From a virus (lineage: Duplodnaviria; Heunggongvirae; Uroviricota; Caudoviricetes): a stretch of DNA of 64,000 nucleotides. Below the pieces are notes generated by a model. The model did no database searches. It worked only from the letters and a program-made list of their open reading frames with translations, and was not told the origin of the DNA. The stretch lies in IMG/VR virus record IMGVR_UViG_2687453522_000001; one strand, written 5' to 3'. The position numbers were made by a program, and so were the translations under genes. Positions 8,890-37,085 of this stretch are shown piece by piece; the first letter of the stretch is position 1; the number at the start of each line of letters is the position of its first letter.

Positions 8890-9783
8890 ATGCATTCTTT
8901 ACAGAAATACATAAAACATAAATATACTCACTTAACTTTTTTTCTCTCATTACTTTTCTTCATGATATTTGAATCTCGAGAAGATATTATCAAGAAAACA
9001 TTATCTTTTTCTCTCGATGAAGTTTTACCATTCTTAATGTTTGCGTTCTTCTCCGCCTTTATCAGCATAACGATAAAGGAAAAGATAGCAAAAAAATACC
9101 CAGAAACAAACGATGGGATTACCATTATAGCTTTAATCTTTGGTGTAACGCTATATAGTGTATTTATATTATATTATTTATATGGTGATGTATACCAATC
9201 CACAATTGCTTTACTTATAAGTTCTGTGCTACTTGGTTCTGGGTGGTGGGTTCAGGCTACTGTGAGTAAAGTAGCCGCAAGAAAATCACACACCTTAAAT
9301 ACACTAATGAATCAAAGAAACAGTGAATTATTTCACAAAAAAGTCTCATCGGTAGCGAATACGTTCGGGCTTAGAAAAACCATAAATGAAATTATTGCCA
9401 AACAAAGACTTATCCCAAATGATAAAGATTTAAAAAATAAAAAGGTCCATGATAAATACATATCAGCAGGTAATGATATGTTCTTCGTTCTTAATTATTA
9501 TGAGTTTATCTGTTCAGGAATAATAAATGGAGACTTTGATGAAGATTCAATGAGAGAATGTCTTGGACAAATTGTTCCAGGTCTCGAAGTTAGAGCATTT
9601 CATTTTATAAGAATTGCAAGAGAAATTTCAGGGAGTAGCTGCTTCTGTAATTTTGTTGCTGTTTCAGATAAATGGTCTACTAATGGAGGCTCTCTTATTC
9701 TCAGACACGAGAAAGGAGAACCTGTGATCAATAACCTGACCCATTGCTTTGAAGAAACAGCCTGTTATAACACAACATCTTAA
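8890..9783 (+). CDS. polytopic membrane protein with C-terminal soluble domain, unknown function
   Basis: 297 aa; about four hydrophobic helices in the first 125 aa, then a Cys-containing soluble domain; strongly AT-rich coding sequence. Confidence 0.6.
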   Translation: MHSLQKYIKHKYTHLTFFLSLLFFMIFESREDIIKKTLSFSLDEVLPFLMFAFFSAFISITIKEKIAKKYPETNDGITIIALIFGVTLYSVFILYYLYGDVYQSTIALLISSVLLGSGWWVQATVSKVAARKSHTLNTLMNQRNSELFHKKVSSVANTFGLRKTINEIIAKQRLIPNDKDLKNKKVHDKYISAGNDMFFVLNYYEFICSGIINGDFDEDSMRECLGQIVPGLEVRAFHFIRIAREISGSSCFCNFVAVSDKWSTNGGSLILRHEKGEPVINNLTHCFEETACYNTTS

Positions 9784-9789
9784 TATTTT

Positions 9790-9816
9790 GTAACCCATAA
9801 TCGCTTTATGGGTTAC
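9790..9816. terminator. bidirectional terminator hairpin between convergent genes
   Basis: GTAACCCATAA-TCGCT-TTATGGGTTAC perfect 11-bp stem with AT-rich flanks. Confidence 0.5.
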
Positions 9817-9834
9817 GTTAAATTTGCAATAAAA

Positions 9835-10311
9835 TTAATCGCCGCGCTTTAAGCATCCATCGTTTTTAGCTTGTTGATATAATTTACTTAGCCCAGAAAG
9901 AGGAAATGTGGCAATTTTTTCATTATCAACATAAGCATCGATCGCATTAGCATTTGAATCTGCTGCATCTTGCCAAAAGGCATACCACCAAGAATCTCCA
10001 ACCATTGACCCAAGATTGCTAAAAGGGTATTGCTCACCATCTAATGTTAATACTATTTTACTCTTGTCAGCATTATACTCTTTTTTATTATTCGACGACC
10101 TTAGCAACAGGCCTAAACTACCGGCACTATCTGGTGATCCATACATGAAACCCATATCACATAAAAAACTTATCTTATCACCATTTTGATTATGGATTGT
10201 ATATTCTCTCCCCCCTCTATCTTCAATTACATTCCATTGTAGAGGATCAATTTTTGCAAATACTCCTGCTGAAATTAACGATACAAATAATAAAAACCAT
10301 CTCATATTCAT
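9835..10311 (-). CDS. secreted/periplasmic protein, unknown function
   Basis: 158 aa; N-terminal signal-peptide-like MNMRWFLLFVSLISAGVFA; AT-rich. Confidence 0.6.
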   Translation of the reverse strand: MNMRWFLLFVSLISAGVFAKIDPLQWNVIEDRGGREYTIHNQNGDKISFLCDMGFMYGSPDSAGSLGLLLRSSNNKKEYNADKSKIVLTLDGEQYPFSNLGSMVGDSWWYAFWQDAADSNANAIDAYVDNEKIATFPLSGLSKLYQQAKNDGCLKRGD

Positions 10312-10333
10312 TTTTTTCGCTTCTTATCTGTAA

Positions 10334-10684
10334 TTATTCTGCAATATCATTTGCCCATTGCACGGCAGCAAAATGAGTGCCCAAGCCACTCAGGAAAGCA
10401 ATTATTCCCAAAACAATACTAGCTGCTGTTGATTCAAACAAAGCACCAATGCTATAGCCAATAGCTCCCCATACTAAGCTAAAGACAATCATCAATGGTA
10501 TTGCCAGAAATTTTATTCTTAAACTAAAAATCAGTCCAAGAAATGAACCGCCAAAGGCCCACCATGATTTAGACATTAAACCTATCAGTATTGACAGAAT
10601 TCCTATTTCAATAAAGAGAATATTAGATTGCTCTTCATTGAATTTCGCATTTGTTACACCTTTACGAACATGTTCAGATGACAT
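10334..10684 (-). CDS. small integral membrane protein, unknown function
   Basis: 116 aa with 3-4 hydrophobic helices; upstream of and co-directional with the secreted protein gene. Confidence 0.6.
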   Translation of the reverse strand: MSSEHVRKGVTNAKFNEEQSNILFIEIGILSILIGLMSKSWWAFGGSFLGLIFSLRIKFLAIPLMIVFSLVWGAIGYSIGALFESTAASIVLGIIAFLSGLGTHFAAVQWANDIAE

Positions 10685-10830
10685 GATTAACTATCTCCAG
10701 CCACAGATAAAACGCCTTAAAATAACATTTTGTAGCACAAAGTTTCACCATGCAATGGTCAAAGTCTTTGATCCATATCAATTAGAGTTATACATTTTAG
10801 TTGCATAGCTAATAATTTATACGGACACAA

Positions 10831-10847
10831 ATTGCTCTAATTATTTT
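10831..10847 (+). promoter_or_regulatory. C1-type operator-like site
   Basis: ATTGCTCTAATTATTTT, close to the 17-bp ATTGCTCTAATAAATTT motif recurring in this window. Confidence 0.45.
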
Positions 10848-11044
10848 GTTTTTTTAGTTTCATATGCTACATTAACTCGCTTGCGTGCTAATGCATTTTC
10901 GGTTTATCCTAAACAAGCATCTTAGTAAAACGGATGCCGGGATTGGAACCCCGGATAATGCAAAAGGCGACACAGACGCCAAAAGCGTCTTTTTTATGTC
11001 ATGCCATCGCACAACCATACGTAGCACATAGCTACGAGATCAAT

Positions 11045-11124
11045 GGTAGTGCTGGCTGGGCTGCCGAAAGGCAGGCCGGTTCCCTTTTGCGCCGGTAGTT
11101 CCAACCCAGTCAGTGCTACCGCCA
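11045..11124 (+). ncRNA. c4-like antisense RNA (tRNA-like structured RNA of the immunity I region)
   Basis: 16-bp stem (GGTAGTGCTGGCTGGG / CCCAGTCAGTGCTACC) enclosing two hairpins; loop CCCTTTTGC is complementary to GCAAAAGG at the icd RBS (11162-11170) and at 10960-10969; followed by GCCA. Confidence 0.4.
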
Positions 11125-11180
11125 TTGAGATTGGAACCTCACGCGGTAGCTCCTTAAATTAGCAAAAGGAGGCTGCCATT

Positions 11181-11402
11181 GTGGCTACTATCCCTACCCC
11201 AACTCATCCTGAATTTATCTGGCGCTTTTACTCCTGCCAGAAACGTCACTATCACTTCGTTATTGCACCGACAGAAGATGAGGCTCGCTCTCAGCTTCCG
11301 GATGCACCCTGTATTTTCTCTGCCCGCTTTTCTACCGATTCGCGCAATTCTCTCAGTTACTGGAGCCTCCCTGTTAACGCTTCTGCTCAGGAGGGACTAT
11401 GA
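11181..11402 (+). CDS. icd: Icd-like small protein translationally coupled to ant
   Basis: 73-aa ORF with GTG start 6 nt after AAGGAGG; stop overlaps ant start (ATGA). Confidence 0.5.
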   Translation: MATIPTPTHPEFIWRFYSCQKRHYHFVIAPTEDEARSQLPDAPCIFSARFSTDSRNSLSYWSLPVNASAQEGL

Positions 11403-12490
11403 GAACGTCATTAGTCACCCGTGAAGAGATGATCGAGGCAATTGAACAGCACACTGCCTGTATCAGTACCAGGGATATACCAGGCGTTATTGCCAACTAC
11501 TTCATGATCACCAAACAACTTTACCGGAGAAAGGACAAGAACGCGGTTCACCGTATCCTGTTGTCTGATATCCGCGAATACCTGCTCGAACAGGGTCATC
11601 TGAATTACGCAACCGTCGCAGCCGAAGCACGCAAGGAGGCACACAGAATGAAAGCAAATAACGTTAAATTAGAAAAAATTCATGCACCTTCAGTTCAGGA
11701 ATCAGAGCTGGTGGTTGCTCAAAATCAGCCTGATGAAATTCCCGTTCTGGAATGGCTGGGAGTACGTGTAGTGACAACTGAGACTCTTGCTAAGGGGTAT
11801 GGGACCGATGAAGCGAATATTCGTAAAAATTTGTCTCGCAACCCCGATCGCTTTGAAGAAGGTAAGCATTACTATCTCTTAACTGGTTCAAAATTAAAGG
11901 AATTTAAAAGGCTAGTGACTATTAGTCACTTGGTTAGCAAATATACAAGTCAGGTAATTCTCTGGGCCGAGCGCGGCGCTGCACGCATGTCTAAGATCGT
12001 GGACACAAATGAAGCTTGGGCATTCTTTGAAAAACTGGAAGACAGCTACTTCCGGCAAAAAGAACAGCAACCGGTCGCAATCCCCCAAACATTACCAGAA
12101 GCCCTACGCCTGGCTGCCGAGTTAGCAGAACAGAAAATGCAGTTGGAACAACAGCTGGTGGCCGCAGCCCCTAAAGTCGATTTTGCCGACCGGGTATCAG
12201 TGGCCAATGGAATCCTGATCGGGAACTTTGCAAAGGTCGTTGGACTTAAGCAAAACGCCCTTTTCTCATGGTTGCGCCAGAATGGCATTCTCATGGCTTT
12301 TGGAGCGCGCAAAAACGTACCGCGCCAACAGTACATCAACGCCGGGTATTTCACGGTGAAAGAAGTGGTGCTGGATGATGAAAATGGCTACCAGATACGG
12401 CTGACGCCCCAATTAACGGGTAAAGGCCAGCAGTGGTTAACTCGCAAGCTACTTGATGCTGGTTTGTTAAAACCAGTAGCAATAGGTTAA
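11399..12490 (+). CDS. ant: antirepressor (ORF6N-like N-terminal domain plus KilA-C-like C-terminal domain)
   Basis: 363 aa; C-terminal about 140 aa is paralogous to the C-terminus of the next gene (LPEALRLAA(E/D)LAEQK ... TGKGQQWL). Confidence 0.8.
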   Translation: MRTSLVTREEMIEAIEQHTACISTRDIPGVIANYFMITKQLYRRKDKNAVHRILLSDIREYLLEQGHLNYATVAAEARKEAHRMKANNVKLEKIHAPSVQESELVVAQNQPDEIPVLEWLGVRVVTTETLAKGYGTDEANIRKNLSRNPDRFEEGKHYYLLTGSKLKEFKRLVTISHLVSKYTSQVILWAERGAARMSKIVDTNEAWAFFEKLEDSYFRQKEQQPVAIPQTLPEALRLAAELAEQKMQLEQQLVAAAPKVDFADRVSVANGILIGNFAKVVGLKQNALFSWLRQNGILMAFGARKNVPRQQYINAGYFTVKEVVLDDENGYQIRLTPQLTGKGQQWLTRKLLDAGLLKPVAIG

Positions 12491-33409: not shown

Positions 33410-33485
33410 GATGGTGTAGCTCAGCGGTTAGAGCGGTTGACTGTTAATCAACGGGTCGATGGTTCAAATCCATCCACCATCGCCA
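33410..33485 (+). tRNA. tRNA-Asn (anticodon GTT)
   Basis: 76-nt cloverleaf: acceptor GATGGTG/CACCATC, anticodon loop CTGTTAA, T-loop TTCAAAT, encoded CCA. Confidence 0.85.
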
Positions 33486-33487
33486 AT

Positions 33488-33563
33488 GCCGGTTTAGCTC
33501 AGTTGGTAGAGCGCCTGCCTTGTAAGCAGGATGTCAGCGGTTCGAGTCCGTTAATCGGCACCA
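33488..33563 (+). tRNA. tRNA-Thr (anticodon TGT)
   Basis: 76-nt cloverleaf: acceptor GCCGGTT/AATCGGC, anticodon loop CTTGTAA, T-loop TTCGAGT, encoded CCA. Confidence 0.85.
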
Positions 33564-37009: not shown

Positions 37010-37085
37010 GGCCCTTTAGCTCAGTGGTTAGAGCTGGCGACTCATAATCGCACGGTCACCGGTTCAAGTCCGGTAGGGGCCACCA
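37010..37085 (+). tRNA. tRNA with CAT anticodon (Ile2/Met type)
   Basis: 76-nt cloverleaf: acceptor GGCCCTT/AGGGGCC, anticodon loop CTCATAA, T-loop TTCAAGT, encoded CCA. Confidence 0.85.

What the first reader, a model, noticed from the sequence alone, without database searches (positions are those of the whole stretch)
10900..11410. Immunity-I-type antisense module: tRNA-like c4 RNA whose loop is complementary to the icd ribosome-binding site
Upstream of the 73-aa icd-like ORF (GTG start, overlapping ant) lies an RNA-like element with a 16-bp closing stem and internal hairpins. Its loop CCCTTTTGC is complementary to GCAAAAGG at the icd Shine-Dalgarno region (11162-11170) and to a second copy at 10960-10969. 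GATTGGAACC occurs on both sides (10941 and 11129). This matches the P1 c4 antisense-RNA control of antirepressor synthesis; the loop-target pairing can be read directly in the sequence.
Basis: partly seen in the sequence, partly recalled or inferred. Interest (0 to 1): 0.45.

Follow-up and report, generated by a model that had tools for sequence, protein, structure and literature searches.

The report
P1-type c4 antisense immunity module
This is an ordinary but complete copy of the phage P1 "immunity I" switch, in which a small structured RNA (c4) pairs with its own operon's mRNA to keep an antirepressor silent. It carries recognition sequences different from those of P1 and P7, so it is a further immunity specificity of a well-known system.

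Summary

- **The RNA.** Window 11039-11126 (+) matches Rfam C4 antisense RNA at 76.7 bits (cut-off 45). It folds into the 16-bp closing stem plus two hairpins.
- **The pairing.** The hairpin-2 loop CCUUUUGC (b') is complementary over 8 nt, not 9, to GCAAAAGG at 11162-11169 and at 10960-10967. The first site runs into the icd Shine-Dalgarno sequence.
The repeated GATTGGAACC holds the second target, TTGGAAC. It pairs with the single-stranded junction GUUCCAA (a') of c4.
- **The upstream element.** The upstream site pair lies in an IsrK / c4-a1b1-type leader RNA (Rfam isrK, 58.5 bits) that has its own terminator.
- **Comparative test.** In about 270 related modules (17 a'/b' combinations, plus Stx2 phage F039 and phiP27), all four targets change together with c4. 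Only two recombinant modules are exceptions. On seven in-register sequences, 9 of 15 intermolecular pairs are compensatory for each site pair, and 0 of 100,000 permutations of 14 representatives reach the cognate score.
- **Context.** It is P1-like: a C1 operator, icd overlapping ant1/ant2, then kilA and repL, on an IncY E. coli phage-plasmid.
- **Verdict.** Known mechanism, uncharacterised specificity allele. RNA processing and repression were not tested.

The parts
10831..10847 (+). C1-repressor operator of the Oc4/Op51 type, ATTGCTCTAATTATTTT. It overlaps the upstream promoter of the P51a (P2c4) type.
   Evidence: It aligns with P1's annotated Oc4 operator. The 11-nt core ATTGCTCTAAT recurs 8 times in the window, as expected for a C1 regulon. 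Sequence. Binding was not tested.
10881..10910 (+). Putative promoter of the P51b (P1c4) type: -35 TTGCGT (10881-86), 18-nt spacer, -10 TATCCT (10905-10). It would start transcription near 10917.
   Evidence: Read by eye. It lies at the position of P1's annotated P1c4 promoter in alignment A1. It is conserved in RCS47 and L008. It falls below the threshold of the consensus scan, so this is a weak inference.
10917..10996 (+). Leader RNA of the IsrK / c4-a1b1 type. It has a 5' hairpin and a second hairpin presenting a1 in its loop, followed by single-stranded b1 and an intrinsic terminator (stem 10974-10990 plus a U run).
   Evidence: Rfam isrK RF01394 at 58.5 bits, cut-off 50, over model positions 1-77. 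Fold. Terminator-like site. The same element in P1 and P7 matches RF03163 c4-a1b1.
10943..10949 (+). Target a1 (TTGGAAC), in the loop of hairpin CCGGG/CCCGG. It is complementary to a' of c4.
   Evidence: Five of its 7 pairs with a' show compensatory change, and 100% of cells are paired.
10960..10967 (+). Target b1 (GCAAAAGG), complementary to b' of c4.
   Evidence: Four of 8 pairs are compensatory and 100% of cells are paired.
11039..11126 (+). c4 antisense RNA gene (full Rfam match). The mature RNA is predicted at about 11045-11123 (79 nt), by alignment with the annotated 77-nt P1 c4.
   Evidence: RF01695 at 76.7 bits. Fold at -46.4 kcal/mol, z = -5.5. Thirteen of 28 intramolecular pairs are compensatory in 8 homologues. 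P1 annotation; coordinates.
11083..11090 (+). b' recognition segment (CCUUUUGC), in the loop of hairpin 2.
   Evidence: It is variable between phages while the scaffold stays constant.
11098..11104 (+). a' recognition segment (GUUCCAA), in the unpaired junction between hairpin 2 and the closing stem.
11131..11137 (+). Target a2 (TTGGAAC), predicted to lie in the loop of a small hairpin UGAG/CUCA.
   Evidence: Five of 7 pairs are compensatory and 100% of cells are paired.
11143..11150 (+). Segment GCGGUAGC, complementary to the 3' arm of the c4 closing stem (GCUACCGC, 11115-11122). It could form an alternative helix in the unprocessed read-through transcript. Function unknown.
   Evidence: Three of 8 pairs are compensatory and 96% of cells are paired.
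11162..11169 (+). Target b2 (GCAAAAGG). It overlaps the icd Shine-Dalgarno sequence AAGGAGG (11166-11172).
   Evidence: Four of 8 pairs are compensatory and 100% of cells are paired. It corresponds to the b2 site annotated in P1.
11181..11402 (+). icd, 73 aa, GTG start. Homologues have ATG at the same position.
   Evidence: NCBIfam phage_ICD_like at 49.8 bits. It is 80% identical to P1 Icd. Start codon alignment.
11399..12490 (+). ant1 (363 aa), with an in-frame ant2-type internal start at ATG 11648 preceded by AAGGAGG (11633-39). The ATG overlaps the icd stop in ATGA.
   Evidence: Pfam ANT/KilAC and ORF6N domains. It is 61% identical to P1 Ant1, and the last 140 or so residues are identical. 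P1 Ant2 also starts at codon 84. Sequence.

Best explanation
The region is the immI (secondary immunity) control module of a P1-like phage-plasmid. Its specificity differs from that of P1 and P7.

**Proposed mechanism**
1. Transcription starts at promoters overlapped by, or lying just downstream of, a C1 operator.
2. Some transcripts stop at the leader terminator, giving an RNA of about 80 nt that carries a1 and b1. Others read through into c4, icd and ant.
3. c4 is cut out of the read-through transcript. In P1 its 5' end is made by RNase P.
4. c4 folds so that two short segments stay unpaired: b' in a hairpin loop and a' in the multiloop junction.
5. These segments pair with a2 and b2 on the same operon's mRNA. 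Because b2 runs into the icd ribosome-binding site, icd is not translated.
6. As shown for P1, untranslated icd mRNA leads to premature transcription termination, so the translationally coupled ant1/ant2 antirepressor is not made. The C1 repressor therefore stays active.
7. The a'/b' sequences, matched by a1, b1, a2 and b2, define the immunity specificity.

**Shown here**
- Family membership of the RNA and its fold.
- The four complementarities and their strict co-variation.
- The operon anatomy.

**Inferred from homology with P1, P7 and Gifsy-1**
- Transcription, processing, translational block, polarity on ant, and any decoy role of the leader.
For: **RNA family and fold**
- C4 match at 76.7 bits and isrK match at 58.5 bits.
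- Stable three-way fold, z = -5.5, with b' and a' unpaired.
- Thirteen of 28 c4 pairs are compensatory in 8 homologues.

**Complementarity in the window**
- Exact 8-nt and 7-nt complementarities at four sites.
- 0 of 20,000 flank shuffles reproduce all four.

**Match to P1**
- The P1 record annotates the same parts in the same order: Oc4, P2c4 and P1c4 promoters, a1, b1, c4, a2, b2, icd, ant1, ant2.
- The alignment shows P1 with a = TTGACAG and b = GTTAGTG, P7 with TTAGCAG and GATTGTG, and the window with TTGGAAC and GCAAAAGG. In each case c4 carries the matching change.

**Comparative test**
- The census covers 92 distinct module sequences, about 270 modules. There are 17 a'/b' combinations on 3 scaffolds. 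All four targets track c4 except in two a1 chimeras.
- For 14 representatives, 0 of 100,000 permutations reach the cognate pairing total.
- On an independent alignment, a2/b2 are 100% paired with 9 of 15 pairs compensatory. a1/b1 are also 100% paired with 9 of 15 compensatory. Versions slid by 1-3 columns drop to 22-53% paired.

**Downstream genes**
- icd and ant identified.

**Published mechanism**
- c4 of P1/P7 blocks ant expression by pairing around the ribosome-binding site and underlies P1/P7 heteroimmunity (review PMC12197685; PMC8198154).
- The c4 precursor is an RNase P substrate (Hartmann et al. 1995, as listed).
- Own knowledge, papers not held in the library: the translational block on icd causes Rho-dependent termination before ant (Biere, Citron and Schuster, Genes Dev 1992).
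Against: - There are no expression data for this element. RNA ends, RNase P cleavage and repression are all unverified.
- c4 lies downstream of a good intrinsic terminator. Its synthesis therefore depends on read-through, or on a promoter I did not detect.
- The promoter assignments are weak: 4 of 6 matches per hexamer, below the scan threshold.
- The window's c4 is only about 50% identical to P1 c4 and is closer to P4 CI RNA, at 70%. CI acts by transcription termination rather than by an RBS block, so the exact output step could differ.
- The predicted structure of the free icd leader is not more stable than its shuffles, z = -0.5.
Confidence: 0.9

Rival explanations
1. IsrK-type activation switch, as described for Gifsy-1. 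The main regulator would be the short terminated leader RNA (10917-10996). Acting in trans, it pairs through a1/b1 with the c4 segment of the read-through transcript or with free c4. This remodels or titrates c4 and so turns icd-ant translation on. c4 would then be mainly a cis-inhibitory structure or a sponge target, rather than the primary repressor. This reading can coexist with the main explanation, as a decoy layer on top of it.
For: - The leader passes Rfam's isrK cut-off and carries its own terminator.
- a1/b1 co-vary with c4 as strictly as a2/b2 do, so they are under selection.
- The read-through RNA 10917-11200 is predicted to pair a1/b1 with a'/b' in cis at -113.2 kcal/mol, z = -6.5. 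This resembles the inactive 'structure A' of Gifsy-1.
- In Gifsy-1, short IsrK activates translation of the read-through isrK-orf45-anrP mRNA. A processed stable RNA, STnc1160, lies where c4 lies here (PMC4825925).
Against: - For P1 and P7 the genetics identify c4 as a trans-acting repressor of ant. The window has the P1 layout, with b2 on the icd Shine-Dalgarno sequence.
- a2/b2 co-variation is not needed by a pure leader-activator model.
- No experiment on any P1-like element shows leader RNA acting in trans.
Confidence: 0.3
2. P4-type mechanism. The c4-like RNA pairs with the upstream and downstream sites (as CI RNA pairs with seqA and seqC) and directly causes premature transcription termination. 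Blocking icd translation would not be the primary event.
For: - P4 CI RNA matches the C4 model at 74.9 bits, and the P4 seqA region matches isrK at 60.8 bits.
- The window's c4 is 70% identical to P4 CI, against 50% to P1 c4.
- The P4 mechanism is summarised in PMC4825925.
Against: - b2 overlaps the icd Shine-Dalgarno sequence here and in all P1-like types.
- The downstream genes are icd-ant, as in P1, and not P4 replication genes.
- In P1, transcriptional polarity is a consequence of the translational block (own knowledge, Biere et al. 1992).
Confidence: 0.1
3. The stretch 11043-11162 encodes a small protein. RefSeq annotates it as a 39-aa 'ash family protein', equivalent to Gifsy-1 orf45. 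On this reading the RNA-like fold would be incidental.
For: - PGAP annotates this CDS in identical plasmids.
- In Gifsy-1, translation of orf45 was reported to be needed for coupling to anrP (PMC4825925).
Against: - The ORF is not conserved. It is 39 aa here, 14 aa in P1 (a stop codon inside the b' loop) and 31 aa in P7. Elsewhere it is fused in frame to the downstream gene.
- Scaffolds differ by a 2-nt indel.
- Substitutions are compensatory for RNA pairs, 13 of 28.
- No NCBIfam model matches the peptide.
- The Gifsy-1 work is summarised as finding the nucleotide sequence conserved but the amino-acid sequence variable.
Confidence: 0.04
4. Chance complementarity, or a tRNA or tRNA remnant serving as an integration site.
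For: The stem-loop architecture and the 3' GCCA tail look superficially tRNA-like.
Against: - ARAGORN finds nothing in 10700-11400.
- Rfam assigns C4 here and not tRNA, although it does find three real tRNAs elsewhere in the window.
- Shuffles and co-variation exclude chance.
Confidence: 0.01

Closest known systems
c4 antisense RNA / immI operon of phages P1 and P7 (Rfam RF01695; Citron and Schuster 1990)
   Same: - Same architecture and gene order: C1 operator, a1, b1, c4, a2, b2 at the icd ribosome-binding site, icd overlapping ant1/ant2, then kilA and repL.
- Same RNA fold, with b' in the hairpin-2 loop and a' in the junction.
   Different: - The c4 sequence is only about 50% identical to P1's.
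- a' and b' and all four targets differ. The window has TTGGAAC and GCAAAAGG; P1 has TTGACAG and GTTAGTG; P7 has TTAGCAG and GATTGTG. It is therefore predicted to be heteroimmune.
- The leader matches the isrK model rather than the c4-a1b1 model.
- The Ant central domain is different (ORF6N), while the Ant C-terminus is identical to P1's.
- The genes upstream are not sim.
c4-like modules of phages D6, RCS47 and JL22 (scaffold A)
   Same: - c4 is 96.6% identical to that of D6.
- The leader, spacing and icd are the same.
- D6 and JL22 share the b' allele CCUUUUGC.
   Different: - D6 and JL22 have a' = GUCUCAA, with a1 and a2 = TTGAGAC. RCS47 also has b' = CCUUUGAC.
- In RCS47 and JL22 this module sits between pacB and c1, as a second copy. 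In the window it sits next to kilA-repL and is the only copy in the plasmid.
Gifsy-1 IsrK - orf45/STnc1160 - AnrP locus of Salmonella (Rfam isrK RF01394; PMC4825925)
   Same: A terminated leader sRNA is followed by a processed structured RNA and an antirepressor gene. The leader is complementary to the downstream structured segment. Alternative cis structures are predicted.
   Different: - In Gifsy-1 the leader is described as a trans-activator, and the c4-equivalent is read as a translated orf45.
- Gifsy-1 has no icd.
- The relation to P1 a1b1/c4 is not drawn in that paper, which compares the locus only with P4 seqA/CI.
P4 CI RNA with seqA/seqC (satellite phage P4 immunity)
   Same: - The RNA is homologous. 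CI matches the C4 model at 74.9 bits and is 70% identical to the window's c4.
- The upstream seqA region matches isrK.
- Target sites lie on both sides of the RNA gene.
   Different: P4 CI causes premature transcription termination of replication genes. Here the downstream target overlaps a ribosome-binding site of an icd-ant operon.
P22 sar RNA
   Same: It is a small antisense RNA that blocks translation of an antirepressor (ant) mRNA.
   Different: sar is cis-encoded on the opposite strand and fully complementary. It is unrelated in sequence and structure. c4 is encoded on the same strand and pairs through two short segments.

Membership tests
C4 antisense RNA (Rfam RF01695; P1/P7 c4) | Covariance-model score at or above the curated gathering score (45 bits), over the full model length | tested here: met
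   76.7 bits, E = 3e-13, model positions 1-87 of 87, at 11039-11126 on the + strand.
C4 antisense RNA (Rfam RF01695; P1/P7 c4) | Long closing stem enclosing two hairpins and an unpaired 3' junction, supported by co-variation | tested here: met
   MFE -46.4 kcal/mol, z = -5.5. Thirteen of 28 pairs are compensatory among 8 homologues.
C4 antisense RNA (Rfam RF01695; P1/P7 c4) | Two unpaired segments (b', a') complementary to sites a2 and b2 downstream on the same strand, with b2 at the ribosome-binding site of the first ORF | tested here: met
   The pairings are 8 nt and 7 nt long. b2 (11162-69) overlaps the Shine-Dalgarno sequence at 11166-72. All cells are paired and 9 of 15 pairs are compensatory.
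C4 antisense RNA (Rfam RF01695; P1/P7 c4) | A second copy of the targets (a1, b1) upstream of c4 | tested here: met
   Sites at 10943-49 and 10960-67. All cells are paired and 9 of 15 pairs are compensatory.
C4 antisense RNA (Rfam RF01695; P1/P7 c4) | Downstream icd then ant1/ant2, translationally coupled | tested here: met
   phage_ICD_like at 49.8 bits. ANT/KilAC domain. ATGA overlap and an in-frame internal start at codon 84, as in P1.
C4 antisense RNA (Rfam RF01695; P1/P7 c4) | Operon under a C1-repressor operator (Op51/Oc4) | tested here: inconclusive
   An operator-like 17-mer at 10831-47 aligns with P1's Oc4. C1 binding and promoter activity were not tested, and the promoters fall below the scan threshold.
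C4 antisense RNA (Rfam RF01695; P1/P7 c4) | Processed from the operon transcript by RNase P to a stable RNA of about 77 nt that represses Ant synthesis | not testable with these tools
   This needs RNA-seq or a northern blot, RNase P assays and reporter fusions. The ends predicted by alignment with P1 are 11045-11123.
isrK Hfq-binding RNA (Rfam RF01394) | Covariance-model score at or above the gathering score (50 bits), with a terminal intrinsic terminator | tested here: met
   58.5 bits at 10917-10995. Terminator-like site at 10974-10990 followed by a T run.
isrK Hfq-binding RNA (Rfam RF01394) | Hfq binding and trans-activation of the downstream antirepressor | not testable with these tools
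   Reported only for Gifsy-1 (PMC4825925).
c4-a1b1 motif (Rfam RF03163) | Covariance-model score at or above the gathering score (46.7 bits) | tested here: not met
   There is no RF03163 match in the window at the gathering threshold. P1, P7 and other scaffold-B loci do match, at 51-57 bits, on the homologous stretch that also matches isrK weakly. The element is therefore the same but the model is subtype-specific.
tRNA | Cloverleaf with anticodon arm, detected by ARAGORN or Rfam tRNA | tested here: not met
   ARAGORN finds 0 genes in 10700-11400. Rfam tRNA hits occur only at 33410, 33488 and 37010.
'Ash family' / orf45 small protein | A conserved open reading frame and peptide sequence across homologues | tested here: not met
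   ORF length varies: 14, 31 or 39 aa, or fused to the downstream gene. The peptide sequence is not conserved, and P1 has a stop codon in the b' loop. There is no NCBIfam hit.

The most novel reading that the evidence does not exclude
The a1/b1-bearing leader is a trans-acting anti-antisense decoy (an IsrK-like sponge). On this reading it sets the threshold of c4 repression in P1-like phage-plasmids. The two-segment a/b code has been recombined combinatorially: 2 x 2 combinations on the window's scaffold, and 12 of a possible 14 on the P1 scaffold. This would generate many mutually orthogonal immunity specificities, of which the window's (a' GUUCCAA, b' CCUUUUGC) is one. The evidence shows that all five elements co-vary, so a1/b1 are functional. 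It does not show what a1/b1 do, nor that single-segment differences are enough for heteroimmunity.
Probability: 0.35. Interest if true: 0.5.

Novelty: new member of a known kind. Interest (0 to 1): 0.25.

Why it matters
For this window it matters mainly for annotation. The stretch between 10831 and 11180 is a complete RNA-based immunity switch. RefSeq annotation of identical plasmids instead shows a spurious 39-aa 'ash family protein' CDS lying on top of the RNA gene.

More broadly, the comparison made here shows that the 'putative' upstream a1/b1 sites of P1 are under the same selection as the proven a2/b2 sites.

It also shows that P1-like phage-plasmids carry at least 17 a'/b' combinations built from a few interchangeable alleles. 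This is a natural set of candidate orthogonal RNA repressor/target pairs. It could explain which phage-plasmids can coexist or superinfect, and such pairs could be reused as orthogonal riboregulators.

None of this changes the known mechanism.

Tried and rejected
- **Mistyped scans.** Two IMG/VR pattern scans returned nothing because I set the N runs one base too long. After checking the corrected patterns on the held loci, they gave 71 and at least 120 loci.
- **Whole-module alignment.** The alignment of all scaffolds (A3) put P1-type rows out of register in c4 and a2. I did not use it for pair counting. I used anchor-based extraction in Python and a 7-sequence in-register alignment (A5).
- **Promoter scan.** The consensus scan did not recover the P51a/b-type promoters. 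Those are proposed only by alignment with P1.
- **Second c4 in the plasmid.** I looked for a second c4 module in the rest of the matching plasmid, NZ_CP023961, and found none.
- **tRNA.** Tested and rejected.
- **Protein-coding 'ash/orf45'.** Tested and rejected as a conserved protein.
- **Shine-Dalgarno hairpin.** A sequestering hairpin in the free icd leader is predicted but is no better than shuffles, z = -0.5. It is not claimed.
- **Papers not held.** The primary P1 papers (Hartmann 1995, PMC41593; Lobocka 2004, PMC523184) are not in the library. Those points rest on reference lists, the GenBank annotation of P1 and my own knowledge.
- **Literature on allele diversity.** I found no paper in the held library that describes the a'/b' allele diversity. 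Subscription papers, for example the D6 genome paper, could not be checked.
Full report
**What the window is**

The 801 bases around the finding are 100% identical to about 97-kb IncY plasmids of E. coli, for example NZ_CP023961. The gene order downstream is icd, ant, kilA-like, repL-sized ORF. Eight copies of the C1-operator core ATTGCTCTAAT are scattered through the window. Together these mark it as a P1-like phage-plasmid.

Among named phages, the region is closest to JL22 (92.5%), RCS47 (89.6%) and D6 (87%). P1 and P7 themselves are too diverged for megablast to detect.

**Checking the observation**

- The RNA-like element folds at -46.4 kcal/mol (z = -5.5). It forms a 16-bp closing stem, a GAAA-capped hairpin, and a second hairpin whose loop holds CCCUUUUGC.
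- The complementarity to GCAAAAGG is 8 nt long, not 9. It exists at 11162-11169, running into the AAGGAGG Shine-Dalgarno sequence 8 nt before the icd GTG. It also exists at 10960-10967.
- GATTGGAACC occurs only at 10941 and 11129 in the 64 kb, against 0.06 expected.
That segment is the unpaired stretch between hairpin 2 and the closing stem. There are therefore two recognition segments and four target sites.
- None of 20,000 dinucleotide-preserving shuffles of the flanks reproduced all four complementarities.

**What it is**

Rfam's C4 antisense RNA model (RF01695) matches 11039-11126 over its full length at 76.7 bits, cut-off 45. Rfam's isrK model (RF01394) matches 10917-10995 at 58.5 bits, cut-off 50.

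The GenBank record of P1 annotates exactly this series of parts:
- C1 operator Oc4, then promoters P2c4 and P1c4
- a1, b1, then c4 (77 nt)
- a2, b2, then icd, ant1 and ant2

Aligning the window with P1 and P7 puts all parts in the same order. It also shows that the recognition sequences differ:

| Phage | a site | b site |
|---|---|---|
| P1 | TTGACAG | GTTAGTG |
| P7 | TTAGCAG | GATTGTG |
| window | TTGGAAC | GCAAAAGG |

In each case c4 carries the complementary change.

The proteins downstream fit:
- Icd matches NCBIfam phage_ICD_like and is 80% identical to P1 Icd.
- Ant has the ANT/KilAC domain. It overlaps the icd stop in ATGA. It has an in-frame internal start with a strong Shine-Dalgarno sequence at codon 84, the position of P1 Ant2.

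**The comparative test**

I collected loci through the Icd protein and through scaffold patterns with the variable positions masked. I added P1, P7, D6, RCS47, JL22, an Stx2 phage, phiP27 and P4.

- The c4 genes fall into three nearly invariant scaffolds. Almost all variation sits in the b' loop and the a' junction.
- The window's scaffold has two b' alleles and two a' alleles, and all four combinations occur.
- The P1 scaffold has seven b' alleles and two a' alleles, and 12 combinations occur.
- A third scaffold has one type.
- In 92 distinct module sequences (about 270 modules), a1, b1, a2 and b2 match the resident c4 at fixed positions. Occasional G-U pairs are allowed.
- The only exceptions are two chimeras whose a1 carries the other allele.
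- For 14 representatives, cognate helices average 7-9 bp against 4.7-5.0 bp for non-cognate alleles. None of 100,000 permutations of c4 against target sets reaches the cognate total.
- On a separate 7-sequence alignment, a2/b2 are 100% paired with 9 of 15 pairs compensatory. a1/b1 give the same figures. Sliding the partner by 1-3 columns drops pairing to 22-53%.
- The c4 fold itself has 13 of 28 compensatory pairs.

The interpretation therefore survives its own refutation test.

**How it most likely works**

By homology with P1 and P7, the sequence of events is as follows.

1. Transcripts start at C1-controlled promoters.
2. c4 is released from the read-through transcript. In P1, RNase P makes its 5' end (reference).
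3. c4's b' and a' pair with b2 and a2. This occludes the icd ribosome-binding site.
4. Without icd translation, the coupled ant1/ant2 genes are neither translated nor, in P1, transcribed. The polarity step is from my own knowledge of Biere et al. 1992.
5. The antirepressor is therefore absent and C1 stays active.

The mature RNA predicted here is 11045-11123, 79 nt. All of these steps are inferred for this element. Only the anatomy and the co-variation are shown.

**The upstream half**

The a1/b1 pair lies in a discrete element:
- a 5' hairpin,
- a hairpin presenting a1 in its loop,
- single-stranded b1,
- an intrinsic terminator at 10974-10996.

In P1 and P7 the homologous stretch matches Rfam's c4-a1b1 model and, more weakly, isrK. 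In P4 the seqA region matches isrK and CI RNA matches C4. The P1 a1b1 leader, P4 seqA and Salmonella Gifsy-1 IsrK are therefore the same kind of element, and P1 c4, P4 CI and Gifsy-1 STnc1160/'orf45' are the same kind of RNA.

In Gifsy-1, the short terminated IsrK acts in trans on the read-through transcript to switch on the antirepressor (PMC4825925).

In the window, the full read-through RNA 10917-11200 is predicted to pair a1/b1 with a'/b' in cis (-113.2 kcal/mol, z = -6.5). This resembles the inactive structure described for Gifsy-1.

The strict co-variation of a1/b1 shows they are functional. Whether they act as a cis-folding partner or as a trans decoy for c4 is open. I give the decoy layer about 0.3.

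**A further conserved pairing**

A pairing I did not expect links the 3' arm of the c4 closing stem (11115-11122) to GCGGUAGC at 11143-11150, between a2 and b2. Three of its 8 pairs are compensatory and 96% of cells are paired. Its function is unknown. It would compete with c4 folding in the unprocessed transcript.

**Rivals rejected**

- *tRNA.* ARAGORN finds no tRNA.
- *Small protein.* RefSeq places a 39-aa 'ash family protein' CDS at 11043-11162, on top of c4. The ORF is 14 aa in P1, 31 aa in P7, and fused to the next gene elsewhere. The peptide is not conserved. No NCBIfam model matches it. It is best read as a by-product of the RNA gene.
- *P4-type direct termination.* This cannot be excluded computationally. 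The overlap of b2 with the Shine-Dalgarno sequence and the icd-ant context favour the P1 mode.

**Novelty and score**

The kind of system has been known since 1990 and Rfam detects it. The exact sequence is present in many sequenced plasmids.

What is specific to this window:
- The allele pair a' GUUCCAA / b' CCUUUUGC was the commonest of the four combinations on this scaffold in my sample.
- The scaffold is only about 50% identical to P1 c4 and closer to P4 CI.
- The module sits at the kilA-repL position and is the plasmid's only c4 module. In RCS47 and JL22 the same scaffold is a second module between pacB and c1.

I rate it a new member of a known kind, with interest 0.25. I did not find the allele census or the functional status of a1/b1 described in the held literature. 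They are the part a specialist might find useful.

Noticed in passing
window 11043-11162 (+): RefSeq/PGAP annotates a 39-aa 'ash family protein' CDS in identical plasmids, lying exactly on the c4 RNA gene. The ORF is not conserved among homologues: 14 aa in P1, 31 aa in P7, and fused to the next gene in others. It is probably the same thing as Gifsy-1 'orf45', and is probably an annotation artefact.
   Followed up: yes
window 11115-11122 with 11143-11150: There is a conserved, co-varying complementarity between the 3' arm of the c4 closing stem and a segment between a2 and b2. Three of 8 pairs are compensatory. It also holds in L008, Stx2 phage F039, phiP27 and P4. It would compete with c4 folding in the read-through transcript. 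Function unknown.
   Followed up: partly
IMG/VR loci L090-L279; RCS47 (L004), JL22 (L005): Many P1-like contigs (at least 15) carry two c4 modules of different scaffolds and specificities. In RCS47 and JL22 the window-type module lies between pacB and c1. The plasmid matching this window has only one module.
   Followed up: partly
L131 and L137 (IMG/VR): These are two natural chimeras in which the a1 site carries the other allele than a' and a2 (TTGAGAC against GUUCCAA, and the reverse). They imply a recombination breakpoint between leader and c4. They are the only mismatches in about 270 modules.
   Followed up: partly
window 11399-12490 (+): Ant is a mosaic relative to P1 Ant1. Residues 1-83 are about 63% identical. 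The central part is an unrelated ORF6N domain. The last 140 or so residues are 100% identical. This suggests a recent recombination junction inside ant.
   Followed up: partly
window 11019-11035 (+): The spacer between the leader terminator and c4 carries an extra stretch of about 20 nt that is absent from scaffold C, Stx2 phage F039 and phiP27. It forms a small hairpin, CGTAGC-ACATA-GCTACG. Part of it (GTAGCAC) is complementary to the c4 3' arm.
   Followed up: no
window 10831, 14334, 29203, 32725, 48229, 50370, 60063 (+) and 48284 (-): Eight copies of the C1-operator core ATTGCTCTAAT occur, consistent with a P1-type C1 regulon spread over the genome.
   Followed up: no
window 33410-33482, 33488-33560, 37010-37082 (+): Three tRNA genes were detected by Rfam, as in P1-family genomes.
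   Followed up: no
window 8890-10684: The genes upstream of immI are not the sim genes of P1. They are a DUF4760 protein (297 aa, + strand) and two small hypothetical proteins on the - strand (158 and 116 aa), the latter apparently a membrane protein.
   Followed up: no
L280 (NZ_CP023961 78595-87427, outside the window): The same plasmid carries a SIR2-family protein gene, and about 760 bp away across two small ORFs a very large (6.8 kb) N-6 DNA methylase gene. These are possible defence or anti-defence cargo.
   Followed up: no
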